Part shown: piece after piece, positions 29,256 through 62,423 of the stretch
Layout of the letters: each line of letters begins with the position of its first letter
Position numbering within the stretch: the first letter of the stretch is position 1
NCBI GenBank assembly: GCA_964431415.1
Contig: CAYSJS010000003.1
Coordinates: 36,422 to 100,421 of the forward strand
Length of the DNA stretch: 64,000 nt
Direction: 5' to 3'
From: an uncultured Candidatus Saccharibacteria bacterium
Lineage (GTDB): Bacteria; Patescibacteriota; Saccharimonadia; Saccharimonadales; JACDBH01
The notes under the pieces: generated by a model
Told to the model about the DNA's origin: nothing
Seen by the model: only the letters and a program-made list of their open reading frames with translations
The model's database searches: none
Position numbers and translations under genes: made by a program

Positions 29256-30716
29256 TTACTTATTACCGCTTTTAGCCGGTTCAAGTTCAATCTTCGGAAA
29301 TAGCACCGCTTTTGGCGGCTGCAACAGTCCTTCGGCAAAAATATTCTTGATCGCTTGAGCCGTGTCTGGCAGGAAAGGTACCAGCAGCTCTGCAATCTCA
29401 AGCAGATCGCTCACCATATTCGCTAGTACTTCACGCAGATGCTCGGCATCGTTTTCTTTCGCAATCACCCACGGCTTTTGCTCGTCAATATATTGGTTAA
29501 GCCCGCGGACTTGCTCCCACACACTGTCCAAAGCTCTGTCAAACCTAAACTCAGCCAATGACTCGTGGTACACGGCCGCATCATGTTCGGAGGCAGGAAT
29601 ATCGCCAATGAGGCCATTCTGATACTTCTCGATCATGACTGCCGTACGCTGCACGGCATTGCCGAGCTCATTGCCCAGTTCATTGTTATAAGCCCGATTA
29701 AACTCTTCCCAGGTAAAATCGCCGTCGCCATAACTTGGCACATGACGCAGGAAGAAATAGCGGAATGCGTCAACACCGTATGTTTTGACAATTTCATGCG
29801 GATTAATCACATTACCGAGACTTTTACTTATCTTTTGTCCGGACACATTCACAAAACCATGCACATACAGGTTTTTTGGCAGCGGCAGCCCGAGCCCAAG
29901 CAGAATTCCCGGCCATATAGCCGCATGAAAGCGAATAATGTCTTTACCAATAACCTGAACATTGGACGGCCAAAAATCTTTAAAGTCTTTATGTTCCGGG
30001 TAGCCAAGCACCGTTATATAGTTTAATAGCGCCTCGAACCACACATACATCACCTGCTTCGGATCGCCCGGCACCGGTATTCCCCATTTAATTTTGCTCT
30101 TTGGCCGCGAAATACTAATATCTTCCAAACCATCCTTCAGTACGGCCAAAATTTCATTCCGCTTCGTTTCCGGAACGATATTAAAGGACCCGTTCTCTAT
30201 GGCTTTTAGTATGGCATCGGTGTATTTACTAAGTTTAAAGAAGTAATTTTCTTCCTCTATTTTTTCGTACGGTCTTTTATGGTTTGGGCATATGCCTTCG
30301 TTTTCCTTCACGACCGTTTCTGTAAAGAACGCTTCGTCGCCAACACAATACCAACCGGTATAACTCGACTTATAGATATCTTTGCTGAGGTTTTTCCAGA
30401 CTATCTGTGCGCGCTGCTCGTGGCCTTTGTCGGTTGTGCGTATAAAGCGGTCGTTGGAAATTCCAAGCGTCATCGCAAGCTCGCGGAACTTTGCGGAATT
30501 CTGATCAGCAAGCTCCTGCGGGGTTATTTTTAATTCTTTCGCCTTTTCTTCGATCTTACCGCCGTGTTCATCCGTCCCCGTGCTGAAGATAACAGCATTT
30601 CCCTGCTGACGGGCATAGCGTGCCAGCACGTCGGCGAGCGTTATTTCAAGCCCAAAGCCAATATGCGGTTCGCCGTTTATATAAGGGATTGATGTCGTAA
30701 TAAAATAGTTAGTCAT
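29256..30716 (-). CDS. metG: Methionine--tRNA ligase (short form)
   Basis: HIGH-region variant IPYINGEPHIGFG, KISKSLGN (KMSKS) and Cys knuckles. 486 aa. Confidence 0.9.
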   Translation of the reverse strand: MTNYFITTSIPYINGEPHIGFGLEITLADVLARYARQQGNAVIFSTGTDEHGGKIEEKAKELKITPQELADQNSAKFRELAMTLGISNDRFIRTTDKGHEQRAQIVWKNLSKDIYKSSYTGWYCVGDEAFFTETVVKENEGICPNHKRPYEKIEEENYFFKLSKYTDAILKAIENGSFNIVPETKRNEILAVLKDGLEDISISRPKSKIKWGIPVPGDPKQVMYVWFEALLNYITVLGYPEHKDFKDFWPSNVQVIGKDIIRFHAAIWPGILLGLGLPLPKNLYVHGFVNVSGQKISKSLGNVINPHEIVKTYGVDAFRYFFLRHVPSYGDGDFTWEEFNRAYNNELGNELGNAVQRTAVMIEKYQNGLIGDIPASEHDAAVYHESLAEFRFDRALDSVWEQVRGLNQYIDEQKPWVIAKENDAEHLREVLANMVSDLLEIAELLVPFLPDTAQAIKNIFAEGLLQPPKAVLFPKIELEPAKSGNK

Positions 30717-30927: not shown

Positions 30928-32196
30928 TTACAGATTAAAATCCTTAATGAACCGCACCAACACCGCATTCGTCCAGCCAAAACCGACTTGCGACGGATAC
31001 ACGCCTTCAACCGGCTTCTTTTTGGTATTTACGACGTTGTATTTTTCCAAAAAGACGCCATGTTCATTAAACCAGTCGAGGTTCGTCTTAACCCAGCGAA
31101 CGGCGATTCGCTTTGCCTCTTCTTCGTACCCGTACCGCCTGAGCCCTTCGACAACAATATAGTGAAGCGGCGCCCAACCATTTGGGTATGCCCACTGCGC
31201 CTTCAGAGATCCGAAAATTAGTGTCGTATCTATGAGCGGACGGGTTGTAGTAGTAAGCCCACCTTGCTTTTCGAACTTGGCAAGATTATCCACCAGGCGC
31301 GCAGCTTGCTCTTTGCTCGCCATACCCGCCCACATCGTGTAGTAGCCGGCCAGCGACCATACATCGCCCAATACTTTGCGTTCGTAGTTGTAGTCAAAAA
31401 AGAAACCCCTAATTTTTCCCCACATTAGTTGATTCATGGCCCTTTTACGTTTATTGGCGCGCCGTTCCCATTCGTCTGCACGCTTAACCTTGCCTGCGAT
31501 CATCGCCGCGCGAGCAAAATCGGTCTCGTACTTATACAGCAGCGCATTTAGATCAACCGGCAGAAAGTCGAGGCATTTACGCTCAAAACGCGTCGTCATA
31601 TCCCAACCGCTTTCCGCCTCTGCGAGGTCATGCAGCACATTCACGTCATAGTAGCGGCTCAGGCCGTTATACACATTGTGCCACTGCGGATGTGCCGTGT
31701 TCATCCAAACACTTTCATATTCTTCCAGTGCTACCGCCATATGCTCTTTGAGCCAGTCAGTATCCTTTTGGTAGGTATCGTACACATGAAAAATAAAGCT
31801 CGTGAGAAGCGGTGGCTGGGAGCGGCTCGTAAAATACATGCGGCTCGCGTTAGGGATTACATGAAAACGTTTGAAAAGGTAAATAAGATTTTCGAGCATT
31901 CCCTCCACTAAAGACTGGTGTTTCGTATCAGTAAAACCAAGTGCTGTAAAATAGCTGTCCCAGTAATATTGCTCTTCAAACTGGAACCGAGAGGCCGGAT
32001 CCGCTGACGGCACAATATACGTAAAAGGCAAACCAACAAGTGTGCCGTGATCTTCGGTATGATGTCTGGTTAATTGCGTCCAGTAGGCGTCAATAAAAGC
32101 CAGGGCTCGGTCCCGCGTGCCATGGGGAATATATGAAACAGTACGGTTTAATTTATCTAAAATTGCCTGTGCCAGTGGGAGCTTCTTGAGGGCCAT
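30928..32196 (-). CDS. Alpha,alpha-trehalase-like glycoside hydrolase (GH37-like)
   Basis: Trehalase signature-like EEQYYWDSYF, RSQPPLL and a C-terminal GFGWTNAV motif. Confidence 0.7.
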   Translation of the reverse strand: MALKKLPLAQAILDKLNRTVSYIPHGTRDRALAFIDAYWTQLTRHHTEDHGTLVGLPFTYIVPSADPASRFQFEEQYYWDSYFTALGFTDTKHQSLVEGMLENLIYLFKRFHVIPNASRMYFTSRSQPPLLTSFIFHVYDTYQKDTDWLKEHMAVALEEYESVWMNTAHPQWHNVYNGLSRYYDVNVLHDLAEAESGWDMTTRFERKCLDFLPVDLNALLYKYETDFARAAMIAGKVKRADEWERRANKRKRAMNQLMWGKIRGFFFDYNYERKVLGDVWSLAGYYTMWAGMASKEQAARLVDNLAKFEKQGGLTTTTRPLIDTTLIFGSLKAQWAYPNGWAPLHYIVVEGLRRYGYEEEAKRIAVRWVKTNLDWFNEHGVFLEKYNVVNTKKKPVEGVYPSQVGFGWTNAVLVRFIKDFNL

Positions 32197-32423
32197 TCCC
32201 CCACTCTAACACGACGCTTACTGGCAGATGCAAGTCTAATATATTGTCCTTAAATGCCAAAGCGAGCAGTGTTGACAGTGGTATGGAGCGAGCTGTATGT
32301 CATGCCGAAAAGCCGCGACGGTTGCCGCCGCTTCAGCTTCTTTTTTGGTGTTTAGGGCCAGTTTTTCGGCACACGGCAAAGGCTTTTCTTGTTCCATACC
32401 ACATATTCTATCAGCTCCGCATT

Positions 32424-32467
32424 CTAAAAAATGTCCTGCCGCAAACTTAATCTTCGCGGCAGGACAT
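32424..32467 (-). terminator. Rho-independent terminator on the minus strand
   Basis: Perfect 12-bp inverted repeat ATGTCCTGCCGC / GCGGCAGGACAT (32431-32442 and 32456-32467) with a 12-nt loop. On the minus strand it is followed by TTTTTT (A-run at 32425-32430 on the plus strand). It lies about 230 nt upstream of the trehalase start. Confidence 0.55.
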
Positions 32468-32872
32468 GTTGATGACGCCAAAATCTAGGCTTTAGCTTTT
32501 TTTGGCTTTTTTACTTCTTTTCGACCTTTGTCTTTACTCATTACCGTTCCCCTTATGCTTATCTAGCCATACCTAGTATGTATCAGGAAGTATTTGATTT
32601 CAAGCGGCTCATTACCTCATTGGTAAACTAATAAGGAAGCAGCCTTCTTATCCAGTGACCACTCGTCCCTGAATTAATACATTCAGTGTCACCTTCTTTT
32701 TTGGGGCTGCTTCCTTTGTACCTCCTGACTAAAAAGTCAGTACTATAAGTTTGCCTGTTTGCATATACCGATGCTGTGAGGATTATTACAAAGCTTATGT
32801 TTTACTGGTAAAATTTGACATAAGTGGTATAATTATAAGACTCATCAAAATAAGATGAGAGCACAAATACGA

Positions 32873-33271
32873 GGGGCTGAATGCTTCGACATTTGGATTT
32901 ACAAGTTGGGTCGTGTCAGGTCGCTTGCTCAGCGTCATAGGGCAAAATTAATAAATGCAACAGCATCTATTCGCAATGCTAGAGCTACTGTAGCAGCTAT
33001 GCTGCAACGCAGTAACTTTACGCTTGCACCACAATTTGCTTAATAGCTAATTGGACTATTCGCTCGACATCAGATAAAGCGTCTTAGTCTTATATCATCT
33101 GGTTGCTTACGAGCCCTTACCTTAAGCTCGTACTAAGACAAGTGAGGTCGCTGCATTTTGTTATTTTGGATATTTTATAGACAAAGTGCCTAAGATTTTA
33201 AAATAGCCTAAACCTGTAGAGCGCCAACAAGTAACTGAATGGACGCGGTTTCAACACCGCCAGCTCCACCA
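32873..33271 (+). ncRNA. ssrA: tmRNA (SsrA)
   Basis: 5' end GGGGCUGAAUGCUUCGAC matches the tmRNA consensus GGGGCUGAUUCUGGAUUCGAC. 3' end GGACGCGGUUUCAACACCGCCAGCUCCACCA matches the tRNA-like T-arm and acceptor (GGGGCUG pairs with CAGCUCC). The internal tag reading frame ends ...NFTLAPQFA followed by a double stop taa-tag. Confidence 0.8.
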
Positions 33272-33399
33272 TTCTTCGCTCATTATAAATAATGAGCTAC
33301 GAATGGCAGGCCATTTGCCATAGGCGGCTTGCCATTTTTAGCTCAGGCGAAGAATGCCCTCCATAGCCTTTAGGCGACGGATGGGCTACTATTCTCTTC

Positions 33400-33639
33400 A
33401 TGAACTATGTCTATATTCTAAAAAGCATTAACTACGACCAGATATATATTGGCCAAACAGCGGATCTACAAAGAAGACTAAAAGATCACAACTCCGGCAA
33501 AACCAGTCATACGTCAAAGTTTAAACCATGGAACATTATAAGTTACTGTGCATTTTCTACTAAGGAAAAAGCGCTTGGATTTGAAAAGTATTTAAAAACT
33601 TCATCTGGCAAAGCTTTTATGCGCAAACGTCTATTATAA
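33400..33639 (+). CDS. Small GIY-YIG nuclease-family protein
   Basis: N-terminal YVYILKSINYDQIYIGQTADLQRRLKDHN is a GIY-(x10)-YIG motif with the conserved Arg. 79 aa. It lies immediately 3' of the tmRNA gene. Confidence 0.7.
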   Translation: MNYVYILKSINYDQIYIGQTADLQRRLKDHNSGKTSHTSKFKPWNIISYCAFSTKEKALGFEKYLKTSSGKAFMRKRLL

Positions 33640-33664
33640 ATACCAGCGTGAATCTGCAAAAGAA

Positions 33665-33700
33665 AATGACCCCGTCTTCTATACAACGGGGTCATTTTTA
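33665..33700. terminator. Bidirectional rho-independent terminator
   Basis: GACCCCG...CGGGGTC stem (33667-33673 and 33687-33693) flanked by an A-run upstream and TTTTT downstream. It lies between the convergent GIY-YIG and MFS genes. Confidence 0.7.
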
Positions 33701-33712
33701 TACAAGCCAGTT

Positions 33713-35029
33713 CTAATGCATGCCGACGGGGGCCGCAGCACCATCATCCTGGTGCAGAACGTGCTTAGCCGGTTTATAGAAGACGTTAAATACCAGTGCG
33801 CCAACAATAATAGTTGAACCGCCAACCAATACCGGCACATTGACGCCCAGAGTTGCGATATAGCCGGCAATAATAGCCGGGATCGACTGTGCAAGAGCCT
33901 GAACGCTGGCTTCGATTCCGAGCACTTCACCCTGGATCTTTTTGTCGGCAGAAAGGCTCACTAGCGCCGATACGTTAGCCATAGTCAGACCGTTAAATAT
34001 GGCAATGAGAGGCGCTACCATCAAGAGCTGTGCGGTATTATTCGGCAGCAGCTGCATGAACAAAGCTATACCATTCCCGAGCAAACTGATACGCAAAATC
34101 TGGTAGTTCTTAAAGCGCTTTGCAAGTATCGGCGTAAGCACAGCCTGGGTTACCGCTATACAAATACCAATGTACGCAAAGAAGTCACCGACGTTATTAA
34201 CTTTAAACCCAAGCTTTTCGATAAGCAGAATCTGGAAGAAGGTTGTAAAGAACGTAAAGCCGCCCCAGAACAAAAATTCCGATGCAAATATAATACGCAA
34301 ACTTGGGTGCGCTGCAGCTTTTCTGATGTTTTCGATTGACTTGCCCCAAGCCATTTTGAGCTTAGCGTTAATATGCTGGTGGGTTTCTGGCAGAATAAAC
34401 AGAACGAGCAGAGTGTTAACAACGCTTAAGATTGCCGCAAACCAAAATGGAACAGCCGGACCAAACCAATGCGGCGTCGTAAACAAACCAAAGAAGCTCG
34501 TGCCCGGTGCTGCCAGGCGGGCGCCAAGATATGGCCCAGCCACAAACCCGATACCAAACGCCGCACCTATAAGCGCAAAGTTTGTGGTACGTTTTTCGGG
34601 CGGACTCACATCGGCTATTACCGCACGCGCAACACTTAAGTTACCGCCCGTTATGCCGTCCATTGCCCGGGCAAAGAAGAGCAGGGGTATGTTTTTAGTA
34701 ATGATACCGATAGCAAAAAGAGCGTACCCAACTGCCGTTCCAAAAAGACTGAAACTCAAGATCGACTTACGACCGTAGCGGTCACTCAACTGCCCTAAGA
34801 TAGGCGTTGCCAAAAACTGCATCAGCGGATAAATTGCCGTCAGCCACCCGAGCATGATTAATGAACCTTTAAAGCTATACCCGGCCGGTTCAAAAATACG
34901 AAAAATAAGCTGCGGCAAGACCGGCATTAAGATGCTCACCCCAAGCACATCAAGGAAAATAGTCGAAATAACTATAGGAAGCGCCCGATGCTCTAGACGC
35001 GAATTAAGTTTACTTTTTGTTTGCTTCAT
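33713..35029 (-). CDS. MFS transporter (drug:H+ antiporter-like, 12 TM)
   Basis: Multiple TM helices and an MFS motif-A-like loop (GQLSDRYGRKS). It overlaps the marR-family gene end by 4 bp. Confidence 0.85.
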   Translation of the reverse strand: MKQTKSKLNSRLEHRALPIVISTIFLDVLGVSILMPVLPQLIFRIFEPAGYSFKGSLIMLGWLTAIYPLMQFLATPILGQLSDRYGRKSILSFSLFGTAVGYALFAIGIITKNIPLLFFARAMDGITGGNLSVARAVIADVSPPEKRTTNFALIGAAFGIGFVAGPYLGARLAAPGTSFFGLFTTPHWFGPAVPFWFAAILSVVNTLLVLFILPETHQHINAKLKMAWGKSIENIRKAAAHPSLRIIFASEFLFWGGFTFFTTFFQILLIEKLGFKVNNVGDFFAYIGICIAVTQAVLTPILAKRFKNYQILRISLLGNGIALFMQLLPNNTAQLLMVAPLIAIFNGLTMANVSALVSLSADKKIQGEVLGIEASVQALAQSIPAIIAGYIATLGVNVPVLVGGSTIIVGALVFNVFYKPAKHVLHQDDGAAAPVGMH

Positions 35030-61626: not shown

Positions 61627-61920
61627 ATGTTTTATTTTTACGTGCTTTTATCTCGTGAGGATAATACCTATTACTACGGCTCAACAAATGATTTGACACG
61701 TAGAGTTCACGAACACAATACCGGCAAGGTGCAATCCACCGTGTATAGACAACCATTAAAGTTGCTATACTATGAGGCGTACGAAGTAATGCGACAAGCA
61801 AGACTTCGCGAAAAACAAGTGAAAGCAAGTGGAAGTATCCGAAAAGCTTTACACGAAAGAATCAATCCCGTAATCCGTACGAGGGGCCAGCCCGGCCTCC
61901 CGCAGGGAAGCCGACGTTAG
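61627..61920 (+). CDS. Small GIY-YIG nuclease-family protein, second copy
   Basis: FYFYVLLSREDNTYYYGSTNDLTRRVHEHN is a GIY-YIG motif. Its 3' end overlaps the first copy of a 37-bp direct repeat, and it lies immediately upstream of tRNA-Lys. Confidence 0.7.
   Translation: MFYFYVLLSREDNTYYYGSTNDLTRRVHEHNTGKVQSTVYRQPLKLLYYEAYEVMRQARLREKQVKASGSIRKALHERINPVIRTRGQPGLPQGSRR
61877..61913. repeat. 37-bp direct repeat, copy 1 (gtacgaggggccagcccggcctcccgcagggaagccg)
   Basis: Identical to 61981-62017. It contains an internal imperfect hairpin (CCGGCCTCCC-gcag-GGGAAGCCGG). An extended imperfect match (ccgtaatcc / ccagtaacc) precedes both copies. Confidence 0.85.
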
Positions 61921-61980
61921 AGGAAAGTTAACTATTGCCCTAACGTAAGTACATTAACTAACCACAGTACCCAGTAACCT

Positions 61981-62017
61981 GTACGAGGGGCCAGCCCGGC
62001 CTCCCGCAGGGAAGCCG
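61981..62017. repeat. 37-bp direct repeat, copy 2, abutting the 5' end of tRNA-Lys
   Basis: Perfect match to 61877-61913. The spacer between copies is 67 bp. Confidence 0.85.
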
Positions 62018-62093
62018 GGCCAGTAGCTCAGCTGGTTAGAGCGTCTGCCTCTTAAGCAGAATGTCGTGGGTTCAAGTCCCACCTGGCCCTCCA
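62017..62093 (+). tRNA. tRNA-Lys (anticodon CUU), CCA encoded
   Basis: GGGCCAGTAGCTCAGCTGGTTAGAGCGTCTGCCTCTTAAGCAGAATGTCGTGGGTTCAAGTCCCACCTGGCCCTCCA folds as a cloverleaf. The anticodon loop CTCTTAA gives CUU. Confidence 0.85.
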
Positions 62094-62107
62094 TAACTAT
62101 ATGCACC

Positions 62108-62131
62108 AGGACCTCTTTTGAGGTCTTTTTG
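62108..62131 (+). terminator. Rho-independent terminator after tRNA-Lys
   Basis: GACCTC-tttt-GAGGTC followed by TTTTT. Confidence 0.55.
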
Positions 62132-62144
62132 TTACAATAAAATT

Positions 62145-62381
62145 ATGAAAAACAAAAAAACCATTATTGTAGGATTAATTATGGTTTTACTCCTACTTGG
62201 TTGGCTTGTACCTCTGGGCAGCTATACGACTACAAGAGGATGTCCTGTAGACCCAACGCCTACTGAAAGACTTCATTTGATTTTCGGGGATACTATTCAA
62301 GAAATAAAGGACGGTGATGTTGAGCCACCACCAAACGTCGGCTGTTCTATGAATACTAAATACGTACTTTATTTTCTTTAA
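62145..62381 (+). CDS. Small membrane/secreted hypothetical protein (78 aa from ATG; the track's TTG start at 62118 lies inside the terminator hairpin)
   Basis: MKNKKTIIVGLIMVLLLLGWLV has signal/TM-like character. No motif recognised. Confidence 0.35.
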   Translation: MKNKKTIIVGLIMVLLLLGWLVPLGSYTTTRGCPVDPTPTERLHLIFGDTIQEIKDGDVEPPPNVGCSMNTKYVLYFL

Positions 62382-62423
62382 ATAAAGTTGCAATAGGAAC
62401 CACGATGGCCCTCCATACCGCTT

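What the first reader, a model, noticed from the sequence alone, without database searches (positions are those of the whole stretch)
33272..33639. Small GIY-YIG nuclease gene inserted immediately 3' of the tmRNA gene
A 79-aa ORF with a canonical GIY-(10)-YIG-R motif (YVYILKS...IYIGQTADLQRRLKDHN) begins 128 bp after the tmRNA CCA end. The spacer carries hairpins and a 9-bp inverted repeat (ATTCTTCGC at 33271-33279 and GCGAAGAAT at 33347-33355).

tmRNA 3' ends are classical integration sites for mobile elements. Free-standing GIY-YIG ORFs are typical homing-endonuclease-like selfish genes.

A second copy of the same kind of ORF sits beside tRNA-Lys (see separate finding), which makes chance unlikely.
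Basis: partly seen in the sequence, partly recalled or inferred. Interest (0 to 1): 0.6.

Follow-up and report, generated by a model that had tools for sequence, protein, structure and literature searches.

The report
Mini nuclease element behind tmRNA gene
A roughly 370-bp insert, made of a folded leader and a tiny 79-aa nuclease gene, starts exactly at the last base of the tmRNA gene. It belongs to a widespread family, not found described in the literature I could search, that nearly always sits at the 3' ends of tRNA-type genes.

Summary
An intact tmRNA gene (32873-33271) is followed 128 bp later by an intact 79-aa GIY-YIG ORF (33400-33639), across a strongly structured spacer.

- **It is an insertion.** The closest host relative and about 37 of 39 related Saccharibacteria tmRNA loci have only a terminator right after CCA.
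- **It is not a classical homing endonuclease.** The protein is a single-domain nuclease of the Slx1/UPF0213 lineage. Its closest characterised analogues are the Ssn ssDNA nucleases. No relative was found on phages or plasmids.

The main result concerns the family. In 71 of 80 related loci, from about eight phyla, the gene lies 77-381 bp downstream of a same-strand tRNA (19 anticodons) or tmRNA (17 loci). Six more loci retain a tRNA 3' fragment.

The leader is a conserved set of hairpins with compensatory changes. Its stems pair with the tRNA's own CCA. Gene-less copies of the leader sit behind other tRNAs, including two near-identical copies in one genome.

My best reading is an old, slowly mobile element specific for tRNA 3' ends, run by a hairpin-recognising GIY-YIG nuclease. 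The mechanism is inferred, not shown. No description was found in Rfam or in the searchable literature.

The parts
32873..33271 (+). tmRNA (ssrA) gene, intact, ending in the encoded CCA (33269-33271). It is the target and anchor of the element.
   Evidence: Rfam RF00023, 83.7 bits, model positions 1-374 of 374. It is 70% identical to the tmRNA of the closest relative L082.
33272..33399 (+). 128-nt structured leader of the element. It begins at the first base after CCA.
   Evidence: Fold z=-6.8. The same architecture occurs in 69 of 72 related loci. It is 78-84% identical to the leaders of L173 and L174, although their tmRNAs are only 57% identical to the window's. No Rfam family matches it.
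33270..33279 (+). Stem S1, left arm CATTCTTCGC (the CA of the tmRNA CCA plus the first 8 nt of the element). It pairs with 33347-33356.
   Evidence: 10 of 10 complementary. The complement is present with at most 2 mismatches in 69 of 72 loci, against 5.9 expected, with many compensatory variants.
33269..33306 (-). Inverted copy of the B-type hairpin, read on the minus strand (CCATTC-GTAG-CTC...GAG-CGAAG-AATGG). Its outer stem uses the tmRNA CCA.
   Evidence: Covariance model R1 scores 16.7 bits, E=0.018, on the minus strand. Equivalent minus-strand hits lie at the junction in at least 15 other loci.
33301..33315 (+). 'Guide' GAATGG (33301-33306), complementary to CCA plus TTC at the junction, overlapping the mini-hairpin AATGGCAGGCCATT (33302-33315).
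   Evidence: T[TA]C followed by the reverse complement of (last 3 tRNA nt + first 3 element nt) is exact in 33 of 72 loci (control 1.6). With at most 1 mismatch it occurs in 63 of 72 (control 22.6). It covaries with the junction, including L068 where the tRNA ends in CAC.
33347..33356 (+). Stem S1, right arm GCGAAGAATG.
33356..33386 (+). Hairpin B (GCCCTCC-ATAG-CC-TTTA-GG-CGACG-GATGGGC). It has a 7-bp outer stem, a conserved non-Watson-Crick internal loop and a variable inner stem. It ends 13 nt before the start codon.
   Evidence: R1 scores 41.8 bits, E=6e-9. On alignment A2 of 36 loci, 89% of cells are paired and 9 of 12 pairs show compensatory change. The covariation score is 0.35 against 0.16 in shuffles (0 of 500 as high) and at most 0.13 when the partners are slid.
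33400..33639 (+). 79-aa single-domain GIY-YIG nuclease gene of the Slx1/UPF0213/Ssn-like lineage.
   Evidence: Pfam E=6.8e-19. Invariant Y16, G18, R26, H30, E62 and nearly invariant Y3, Y5. AlphaFold pLDDT 95.7. Best folds are UPF0213 and Slx1. Family dN/dS is 0.03-0.14.
33663..33698 (.). 13-bp perfect hairpin followed by a T-run. It is the first terminator after the tmRNA on the + strand, is probably the displaced tmRNA terminator, and is shared with the convergent MFS gene.
   Evidence: Inverted repeat I8. No terminator-like site lies between the tmRNA and the ORF. Empty sites in relatives carry such a hairpin directly after CCA.

Best explanation
Positions 33272 to about 33640 are one copy of a small element that lodges at the 3' end of tRNA-type genes. 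It has two parts.

1. A 128-nt leader of hairpin modules. The leader starts at the base after the tmRNA CCA, and its stems base-pair with that CCA.
2. A gene for a minimal 79-aa GIY-YIG nuclease of the Slx1/UPF0213 lineage.

**Shown**
- The gene and the tmRNA are intact.
- The segment is absent from most related tmRNA loci, including the closest host relative.
- Relatives of the gene sit behind tRNA or tmRNA genes in 71 of 80 loci.
- The leader hairpins are conserved, with compensatory changes.
- Gene-less leader copies sit behind other tRNAs.
- The protein is under purifying selection.

**Inferred**
- By analogy with the Ssn nucleases, the protein recognises its own hairpins as single-stranded DNA and nicks next to them.
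- Copies are placed at new tRNA ends when the element's internal GNNTGG segment pairs with the target's CCA.
- The gene has no promoter of its own and is expressed by read-through from the tmRNA promoter.
- Hairpin B, which in many relatives contains the ribosome-binding site, limits translation.
- The element moves rarely and is otherwise inherited vertically, much like REP/RAYT systems.
For: **Identity**
-.

**Insertion**
- 37-38 of 39 related tmRNA 3' flanks are a terminator only. The R1 module model hits only the one locus that also has the gene.
- The closest host relative L082 is empty.
- Leader and protein are more similar to L173 and L174 (leader 78-84% nt, protein 68-71% aa) than the host tmRNA (57%) or KsgA (53-56%) are.

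**Family linkage**
- 67 loci by ARAGORN plus 4 tmRNAs by Rfam have a same-strand tRNA or tmRNA ending 77-381 bp upstream.
- From the density of other tRNAs in the same loci I expect about 0.5 of 80.
- Six 'exceptions' keep a tRNA 3' fragment ending in CCA against the module.

**Leader**
-.

**DNA-level action**
- The B-type hairpin occurs in both orientations, so one copy has the motif only on the non-transcribed strand's complement.

**Mobility**
- Solo modules follow about 10 of 41 other tRNAs.
- A 129-nt module with 128 identical bases follows two different tRNA-Ser genes in L007, starting right after CCA.
- Secondary and decayed copies exist.
- The tRNA identity switches between related clades.

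**Function retained**
- dN/dS is 0.03-0.14.

**Expression**
- No promoter-like or terminator-like site lies in the leader on the + strand.
- An SD-like AGGAGG lies in the 3' arm of hairpin B in 29 of 72 loci.

**Precedent**
- SsnA is a 94-aa single-domain GIY-YIG that binds a hairpin repeat flanking its own gene and cuts ssDNA upstream of it (PMC11893778).
Against: - No biochemical or transposition data exist for this family. Nuclease specificity, the ssDNA substrate and the copying mechanism are all analogy.
- The published Ssn-related motif has no match near any of the 80 genes or in the window.
- Membership of the Ssn family (cd10448) could not be tested.
- The right boundary of the element is undefined, and no clear target-site duplication was seen in the window.
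- Clades largely follow taxonomy, position is stable within genera such as Bradyrhizobium and the Sphingomonadales, and there are no phage or plasmid copies. These points fit a domesticated host gene about as well as a mobile one.
- High leader conservation could reflect functional constraint rather than recent transfer.
- The 80 family loci were selected for presence of the gene, so they say nothing about how often the gene is absent.
Confidence: 0.55

Rival explanations
1. It is a domesticated host gene rather than a mobile element. On this reading the Slx1-like nuclease has a cellular role tied to tRNA or tmRNA loci. One option is processing replication-transcription conflict or R-loop structures at highly transcribed RNA genes. 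Another is cleaving the tRNA-mRNA co-transcript at the leader hairpins. Its position behind a tRNA serves expression or function.
For: - Strong purifying selection.
- Clades follow taxonomy, and the position is stable across Bradyrhizobium, the Sphingomonadales and a Saccharibacteria sub-lineage.
- No phage or plasmid copies.
- Likely co-transcription with the RNA gene.
- Eukaryotic Slx1 acts at stalled forks, and a TrmH fusion led earlier authors to suggest an RNA role for prokaryotic Slx1 homologues (PMC1564403).
Against: - The gene is absent from most close relatives, including the nearest one, so it is dispensable.
- The tRNA partner changes between related lineages, and 19 anticodons plus tmRNA are used.
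- Gene-less modules are copied to other tRNA ends.
- Displaced tRNA 3' fragments accompany secondary copies.
- One B-type hairpin is oriented so that it exists only on the strand that is not in the tRNA transcript, which argues against a purely RNA-level role.
- SsnA does not bind RNA.
Confidence: 0.2
2. It is a classical free-standing GIY-YIG homing endonuclease gene. The enzyme would make a double-strand cut in empty tmRNA or tRNA alleles, and its gene would be copied in by recombinational repair, as phage T4 SegB does in a tRNA gene cluster.
For: - GIY-YIG domain.
- Presence/absence polymorphism at a highly conserved target with a precise junction.
- Weak similarity to the group I intron endonuclease model (E=3.7e-4).
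- SegB precedent (PMC2330249).
Against: - Only 79 aa, with no DNA-binding domain. Known GIY-YIG homing enzymes need one.
- Below the model cut-off (20.6 against 56 bits).
- The fold matches Slx1/UPF0213 (TM 0.71) much better than I-TevI (TM 0.48-0.53, E about 0.2).
- No phage or plasmid relatives.
- The conserved 128-nt hairpin leader, the solo modules and the pairing with CCA have no counterpart in homing endonuclease genes.
- Long vertical persistence.
Confidence: 0.12
3. It is the remnant of an integrase-mediated genomic island or prophage that once integrated at the tmRNA 3' end.
For: - tmRNA and tRNA 3' ends are classical integration sites for tyrosine integrases (PMC4383910, listed).
- Some related loci (L030, L077) show duplicated tmRNA or tRNA 3' ends with other DNA inserted between the RNA gene and the GIY element.
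Against: - No integrase or other island gene lies nearby. The next gene is a conserved MFS transporter that is 82% identical in the empty-site relative.
- The insert is only about 370 bp.
- It starts after the CCA rather than inside the RNA gene.
- No repeat of the tmRNA 3' end lies at the distal side in the window.
- The same compact architecture recurs in 70 or more unrelated loci.
Confidence: 0.02

Closest known systems
Ssn nucleases and their NTS/SRM hairpin repeats (SsnA of Neisseria meningitidis; Chenal et al. 2025, PMC11893778)
   Same: - A single-domain GIY-YIG protein of 80-100 aa.
- The gene is accompanied, and sometimes flanked on both sides, by its own conserved hairpin repeats.
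- Repeats also occur away from the gene.
- Wide but patchy distribution across phyla.
- The authors themselves note the likeness to an insertion sequence.
   Different: - The hairpins here differ. They are bipartite, with a G[AT]AG/CGAAG internal loop, and have no match to the published SRM consensus.
- They are anchored to, and pair with, the CCA end of tRNA or tmRNA genes. That paper never mentions tRNA.
- Copy numbers are low, not hundreds per genome.
- Membership of cd10448 and ssDNA cleavage are untested.
REP/REPIN-RAYT systems (REPtrons) and GTAG/CGTC-tagged REPs (PMC3733652)
   Same: - A single-copy nuclease gene associated with short palindromic repeats.
- The repeats occur in inverted pairs and as gene-less copies.
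- Mostly vertical inheritance with occasional copying inside the genome.
   Different: - The enzyme is a GIY-YIG nuclease, not an HUH/Y1 transposase.
- Repeats are not scattered through intergenic regions. They sit at tRNA 3' ends.
IS200/IS605 transposons (TnpA)
   Same: - Hairpin ends.
- Strictly site-specific insertion next to a short target sequence.
- The target is recognised by base pairing with an element-internal guide next to a hairpin. This last point is from my own knowledge, not tested here.
   Different: - No TnpA or TnpB.
- The chemistry would have to be hydrolytic nicking plus host repair or replication, not covalent Y1 strand transfer.
- Nothing about the mechanism is shown here.
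UPF0213 (YhbQ, BH0048, EF2693) and eukaryotic Slx1 nuclease domain
   Same: They give the best sequence and fold matches: 1zg2 at E=1e-12 and Slx1 at TM 0.71, rmsd 1.5-1.9 A. Both are minimal GIY-YIG cores without the C-terminal Asn of the UvrC/I-TevI lineage.
   Different: - Only 32-36% identity.
- Slx1 needs a RING domain and Slx4.
- None of the sources I read or retrieved reports tRNA linkage or hairpin leaders for UPF0213 genes.
Free-standing GIY-YIG homing endonucleases (T4 SegB and others; I-TevI)
   Same: GIY-YIG chemistry, a selfish-looking presence/absence pattern, and SegB lying among tRNA genes (PMC2330249).
   Different: - These are multi-domain enzymes with DNA-binding modules.
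- They are borne by phages or introns.
- They belong to a different structural lineage.
- They have no hairpin leader.
Integrase-mediated islands at tRNA/tmRNA genes
   Same: The same class of target genes, with occasional displaced 3' fragments.
   Different: No integrase, a size of about 370 bp, and insertion after the CCA rather than within the gene.

Membership tests
GIY-YIG nuclease superfamily | Match to the GIY-YIG domain profile above the curated threshold | tested here: met
   PF01541, 68.4 bits against a cut-off of 22.6, E=6.8e-19.
GIY-YIG nuclease superfamily | Conserved catalytic residues: Tyr of GIY, Tyr of YIG, Arg, His, Glu | tested here: met
   Y3 and Y5 nearly invariant; Y16, G18, R26, H30, E62 invariant in 24 sequences.
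GIY-YIG nuclease superfamily | GIY-YIG alpha/beta fold | tested here: met
   AlphaFold pLDDT 95.7, three strands plus helices. The top PDB matches are all GIY-YIG domains.
Slx1/UPF0213 lineage (Dunin-Horkawicz et al. 2006) | Closer in sequence and fold to Slx1/UPF0213 than to UvrC/I-TevI; minimal domain without auxiliary domains; no conserved C-terminal Asn | tested here: met
   - 1zg2 at E=1e-12 and Slx1 at E=1e-8 by sequence.
- Slx1 TM 0.71 against I-TevI TM 0.48-0.53 by fold.
- 79 aa in total.
- No conserved Asn after E62 in the alignment.
- The criterion is taken from PMC1564403.
Ssn family (cd10448, site-specific ssDNA nucleases) | Single-domain GIY-YIG protein of about 80-150 aa | tested here: met
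   79 aa, with the domain covering residues 1-71.
Ssn family (cd10448, site-specific ssDNA nucleases) | Gene accompanied by conserved hairpin repeats in its flanks | tested here: met
   Conserved hairpin modules lie upstream in 69 of 72 loci and on both sides in about 7.
Ssn family (cd10448, site-specific ssDNA nucleases) | Flanking repeats fit the published SRM consensus HGTCWYN(0-2)YYVSBRHN(0-5)WNVSBRGN(0-2)RNCYNB | tested here: not met
   No match within 400 bp of any of the 80 genes, and none in the window.
Ssn family (cd10448, site-specific ssDNA nucleases) | Assignment to CDD model cd10448, or significant similarity to N. meningitidis SsnA | not testable with these tools
   No CDD library and no SsnA sequence were available. 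The paper's supplements are not held.
Ssn family (cd10448, site-specific ssDNA nucleases) | Cleaves ssDNA next to its hairpin; no activity on dsDNA or RNA | not testable with these tools
   This needs biochemistry.
GIY-YIG homing endonucleases (I-TevI/Seg type) | Catalytic domain joined to a DNA-binding domain that gives target specificity | tested here: not met
   The ORF ends 8 residues after the domain.
GIY-YIG homing endonucleases (I-TevI/Seg type) | Match to the intron-endonuclease model, or closest fold being I-TevI | tested here: not met
   TIGR01453 at 20.6 bits against a cut-off of 56. I-TevI ranks 9-11 with E about 0.2-0.5.
GIY-YIG homing endonucleases (I-TevI/Seg type) | Presence/absence polymorphism at a conserved target site | tested here: met
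   Filled in the window, L127 and L172-174; empty in L082 and about 37 other relatives.
GIY-YIG homing endonucleases (I-TevI/Seg type) | Residence in phage genomes, introns or inteins | tested here: not met
   No tblastn match in 50,697 phage records. The gene is free-standing in a chromosomal intergenic position.
Integrase-type genomic island at tmRNA | Tyrosine integrase gene and a direct repeat of the tmRNA 3' end at the far boundary | tested here: not met
   - The neighbours are the MFS, MarR and KsgA genes.
- No such repeat lies in 32700-33800.
REPtron / IS200-IS605 | HUH/Y1 transposase (RAYT or TnpA) | tested here: not met
   The only ORF in the element is the GIY-YIG gene.

The most novel reading that the evidence does not exclude
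The leader plus the 79-aa nuclease, together with its gene-less copies, is a previously unrecognised class of bacterial mobile element.

- A minimal GIY-YIG nuclease would act as the only element-encoded mobility protein.
- An element-encoded guide (GNNTGG, next to a mini-hairpin) would pair with the CCA end of tRNA or tmRNA genes in single-stranded DNA and set the insertion point.

If so, this is a tRNA-end-specific, nucleic-acid-guided insertion system spread over many phyla. A sister family (window 61627-61920) would do the equivalent at tRNA 5' ends.
Probability: 0.3. Interest if true: 0.9.

Novelty: new variant of a known kind. Interest (0 to 1): 0.72.

Why it matters
**Biology**
- tRNA and tmRNA genes are the classic landing sites for integrase-driven islands. 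This would be a second, mechanistically unrelated and much smaller kind of element using the same sites.
- Its recognition logic is readable in the sequence: the stems covary with the target's last bases.
- It gives the newly described single-domain hairpin-binding GIY-YIG nucleases (Ssn) a concrete genomic behaviour to test. They would be the mobilising enzyme of an insertion element, which the Ssn authors only raised as an idea.

**Tools**
- It supplies dozens of natural enzyme/hairpin pairs with differing stems. These are of interest as ssDNA-specific, possibly guide-programmable nucleases.

**Annotation**
- Small 'GIY-YIG family protein' ORFs and odd structured trailers behind tRNA genes can be recognised as one unit.
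- tmRNA genes of this lineage are missed by ARAGORN.

Tried and rejected
- **ARAGORN on the window** found no tmRNA. Rfam did. ARAGORN also missed about 40 of 43 tmRNAs in relatives, so I built an nhmmer profile instead.
- **Exact-sequence look-up of the ORF:** not on record.
- **Published SRM motif of the Ssn paper:** no match. Supplements with SsnA sequences are not held, so the direct comparison with SsnA failed.
- **Metagenome scan with the exact 27-nt tmRNA 3' end:** 0 hits. I replaced it with a KsgA-anchored scan.
- **tblastn against phages and plasmids:** no match.
- **Rfam at permissive E-values over the leader:** only noise, namely miRNA and sRNA models far below their thresholds.
- **The decamer GCCCTCCATA.** It occurs in the leader (33356), at the tRNA-Lys 3' end (62086) and at 62408, which looked like a link between the two loci. 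With one mismatch allowed the count is not unusual: 4 found, and 28 of 100 shuffles do as well. In the leader it is simply the 5' arm of hairpin B. I rejected it as a link.
- **First 'guide' test.** It used a pattern off by one base and found nothing. The corrected test is.
- **G-T versus A-C counts in hairpin B,** intended to infer the folding strand: 5 against 6, uninformative.
- **Literature searches** for any description of tRNA- or tmRNA-linked small GIY-YIG genes or tRNA-end hairpin repeats: none found. The library lacks most subscription journals, so this is not proof of absence.
Full report
**1.

Rfam places an intact tmRNA at 32873-33271 (+): 83.7 bits, full model, ending GCTCCACCA. 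ARAGORN does not see it. The only sizeable ORF that follows is 33400-33639 (+), 79 aa, starting 128 nt after the CCA. It matches Pfam GIY-YIG at E=6.8e-19.

The reported inverted repeat is real and is one base longer than stated: 33270-33279 / 33347-33356, 10 of 10 complementary. It therefore includes the CA of the CCA. The spacer folds to -61 kcal/mol, z=-6.8 against shuffles.

**2. The protein**

- An alignment with 22 database relatives and the window's second GIY-YIG ORF shows invariant Y16, G18, R26, H30 and E62, and nearly invariant Y3 and Y5. This is the GIY-YIG catalytic set.
- A profile search of PDB sequences finds UPF0213 BH0048 (E=1e-12) and Slx1 (E=1e-8).
- The AlphaFold model is confident (pLDDT 95.7).
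- It superposes on Slx1 nuclease domains with TM 0.71 and rmsd 1.5-1.9 A. I-TevI reaches only TM about 0.5 at E about 0.2.
- It is 79 aa with nothing beyond the catalytic core, and it scores far below the cut-off of the intron-endonuclease model.

By the criteria of Dunin-Horkawicz et al. (PMC1564403) this is the Slx1-like minimal lineage, not the homing-endonuclease lineage.

**3. The gene family is tied to tRNA and tmRNA 3' ends**

A scan of one genome per species returned at least 575 relatives, of which I kept the best 80. By record title they come from about eight phyla:

- Patescibacteria, including Saccharibacteria
- Alpha- and Gammaproteobacteria
- Desulfobacterota
- Dependentiae
- Verrucomicrobiota
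- Acidobacteriota
- Latescibacterota
- Fibrobacterota

In 67 loci ARAGORN finds a tRNA or tmRNA on the same strand ending 83-381 bp upstream of the start codon. Rfam adds four tmRNAs that ARAGORN missed. The total is 71 of 80, covering 19 different anticodons and 17 tmRNAs.

From the density of the other 41 tRNAs in the same 1.25 Mb, I expect about 0.5 of 80 by chance.

Six of the nine exceptions still have a tRNA or tmRNA 3' fragment ending in CCA directly against the leader. So does a second copy in L057.

**4. The leader is a conserved, modular structure that incorporates the CCA**

Across phyla the spacer starts right after CCA with NNCTTCGC.

- **Stem S1.** The complement of 'CA plus the first 8 nt' recurs further on in 69 of 72 loci, against 5.9 expected. 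It has many compensatory versions, such as TTCTTCGC/GCGAAGAA, GCCTTCGC/GCGAAGGC, GTCTTCGT/ACGAAGAC and AATTTCAC/GTGAAATT.
- **Hairpin B** follows S1 directly. It has a 7-bp outer stem, a conserved G[AT]AG/CGAAG internal loop and a variable inner stem-loop. On 36 loci, 89% of cells pair and 9 of 12 pairs show changes on both sides. The covariation score is 0.35, against 0.16 in shuffles (0 of 500 as high) and at most 0.13 in slid controls.
- **Inverted copy.** A covariance model of hairpin B (R1) hits the window at 33347-33386 (+, 41.8 bits). It also hits the minus strand at 33269-33306. The first hairpin of the leader is therefore an inverted copy of the same motif, and its outer stem is CCATTC/GAATGG. 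That stem is built from the tmRNA's CCA.
- **Guide segment.** The element-internal segment T[TA]C plus the reverse complement of (last 3 tRNA nt + first 3 element nt) is exact in 33 of 72 loci (control 1.6). It tracks the junction even where the tRNA ends in CAC.

Because the motif occurs in both orientations, at least one copy is meaningful only on a DNA strand that is not in the tRNA transcript. This points to recognition at the DNA level. No Rfam family covers the leader.

**5. It is an insertion, and its history differs from the host's**

I sampled relatives without regard to the nuclease by anchoring on the neighbouring KsgA gene. This gave 80 metagenome loci with 54-80% KsgA identity.

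- A tmRNA profile finds the RNA gene in 43 of them, 39 with the 3' flank present.
- All but one or two show a terminator hairpin and T-run directly after CCA.
- Only L127 has the leader and gene. R1 hits occur only there.

The closest host relative, L082, is collinear with the window. Its identities to the window are MFS 82%, the neighbouring 29256-30716 gene 80%, KsgA 72% and tmRNA 70%. It has an empty site: CCA|ATCAAAGTGCCCGAC...GTCGGGCTTTTTG.

The closest relatives of the element are L172-L174.

- Protein identity to the window is 68-75%.
- L173 and L174 are tmRNA-linked. L172's contig starts within the tmRNA 3' end, which is followed by the same leader.
- For L173 and L174, leader identity is 78-84% nt.
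- Their hosts are more distant than L082: tmRNA 57%, KsgA 53-56%.

The window's terminator at 33663-33698 is plausibly the original tmRNA terminator pushed downstream.

**6. Signs of copying, and signs of long residence**

*Copying*
- About 10 of the 41 other tRNAs in the family loci carry gene-less modules starting right after their 3' ends.
- In L007, two different tRNA-Ser genes (74% identical) are followed by a 129-nt module with one difference between the copies. Similarity stops after it.
- Some loci have modules on both sides of the gene, with 7-13 nt of the tRNA end repeated (L015, L068). Others have tandem arrays (L028, L034) or decayed second copies (L017, L071).

*Long residence*
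- dN/dS is 0.03-0.14 in unsaturated pairs.
- A neighbour-joining tree groups the proteins largely by taxon, with the same tRNA partner inside a clade and switches between clades.
- There is no relative in 50,697 phage or 72,556 plasmid records.

Together this resembles REP/RAYT-type systems, which are rarely mobile and mostly vertical, more than an aggressive selfish gene.

**7. How it probably works (inference)**

The nearest characterised analogue is SsnA. It is a 94-aa single-domain GIY-YIG that binds a hairpin repeat flanking its own gene and nicks ssDNA upstream of it. It has no activity on dsDNA or RNA (PMC11893778).

I propose the following, all untested:

1. This nuclease recognises its B-type hairpins on single-stranded DNA of either strand.
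2. The GNNTGG segment pairs with a tRNA's CCA to fix the insertion point.
3. Host replication or repair completes the copying.

Expression is probably by read-through from the tmRNA promoter. No promoter-like or terminator-like site lies in the leader on the + strand. In 29 of 72 loci the 3' arm of hairpin B carries an AGGAGG-like ribosome-binding site, which suggests translational restraint.

The many C-GAA-G and C-GCA-G loops and G-A mismatches recall very stable DNA mini-hairpins. That comparison is from my own knowledge and is only a lead.

**8. The second ORF**

ORF 61627-61920 is 37% identical to the first and belongs to a different subfamily.

- Its relatives lie immediately 5' of a same-strand tRNA. 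The partner is tRNA-Lys(CTT) in the window's own species and in a 66%-identical relative. It is tRNA-Arg(GCG) in another relative.
- In the tRNA-Arg case the stop codon lies inside the tRNA, and an 11-nt copy of the tRNA 5' end sits upstream of the ORF.
- Its 47-nt repeats (61867-61913 and 61971-62017) contain a minus-strand hairpin CGTC-GG-CTTCCC-TGC-GGGAGG. This resembles the Neisseria NTS and contains a copy of the tRNA-Lys 5' end, GGGCCAG.

Two different minimal GIY-YIG families in one 64-kb window thus abut tRNA-type genes, one at the 3' end and one at the 5' end.

**9. Novelty and caveats**

I found no description of tRNA- or tmRNA-linked minimal GIY-YIG genes or of this leader in Rfam 15 or in the searchable literature. 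The Ssn paper does not mention tRNA. The library is incomplete, so prior description cannot be excluded.

I file this as a new variant of a known kind: a hairpin-associated single-domain GIY-YIG nuclease.

Open points:
- Membership of cd10448 is untested, and the published SRM motif is not met.
- The right boundary of the element, the vector of spread between lineages and every mechanistic step remain open.

Noticed in passing
window 61627-62093; L161-L171: The second GIY-YIG ORF (61627-61920) belongs to a subfamily whose genes lie immediately 5' of a same-strand tRNA. The partner is Lys-CTT in the window, L161-164, L167 and L168, and Arg-GCG in L169-171.

In L169 and L171 the ORF's stop codon is inside the tRNA, and an 11-nt copy of the tRNA 5' end (GCACCCGTAGC) lies about 95 nt upstream of the ORF. 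This looks like direct repeats around a roughly 350-bp insert.

The window's 47-nt repeats (61867-61913, 61971-62017) carry an NTS-like minus-strand hairpin and a copy of the tRNA-Lys 5' end.
   Followed up: partly
window 62084-62095 and 62406-62417: The last 10 nt of tRNA-Lys plus 2 nt (TGGCCCTCCATA) are repeated exactly 322 bp downstream. The two copies bracket a small ORF with no Pfam match (62118-62381, 87 aa, hydrophobic N-terminus). This could be the scar or att pair of a miniature insertion at the tRNA-Lys 3' end.
   Followed up: no
window 32873-33271; L081-L160: ARAGORN fails on the tmRNA of this Saccharibacteria lineage. It missed the window's gene and about 40 of 43 relatives found by an nhmmer profile. 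The window's apparent tag is long (ATASIRNARATVAAMLQRSNFTLAPQFA, read from the Rfam alignment and the ORF frame).
   Followed up: partly
window 30928-35029 compared with L082 2035-5535: Relative to the closest relative L082, the tmRNA (with its GIY element) is inverted between the MFS gene and the 29256-30716 homologue. A trehalase gene (30928-32196) and an 81-aa ORF are also present on the other side of it. The locus has been rearranged as well as invaded.
   Followed up: partly
L030 9661-10000; L077 3000-3400: In these loci the last 17-20 nt of the tmRNA or tRNA are duplicated, and about 180-250 bp of other DNA sits between the intact RNA gene and the duplicated end that carries the GIY leader. 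A different element seems to have inserted later at the same RNA gene end.
   Followed up: no
L028 9440-9930; L034 1-205: In Terracidiphilus (Acidobacteria) loci, five or more tandem copies of the leader module precede the GIY gene. These arrays resemble BIME/REP clusters.
   Followed up: no
L007 9579-9707 and 10416-10544: Two different tRNA-Ser genes in one Babeliales genome are followed by the same 129-nt gene-less module, with 1 mismatch between the copies. Two tRNA-Leu genes in the same locus carry related modules, so five tRNAs within 6 kb are occupied.
   Followed up: yes
alignment A2 (hairpin B), e.g. window 33362-33379: The conserved internal loop covaries in a non-Watson-Crick way. 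CGTAG...CGAAG in most loci becomes CATAG...CGACG in the window, L023, L049, L063 and L073 (G-A replaced by A-C). This suggests a specific three-dimensional motif rather than a simple bulge.
   Followed up: no
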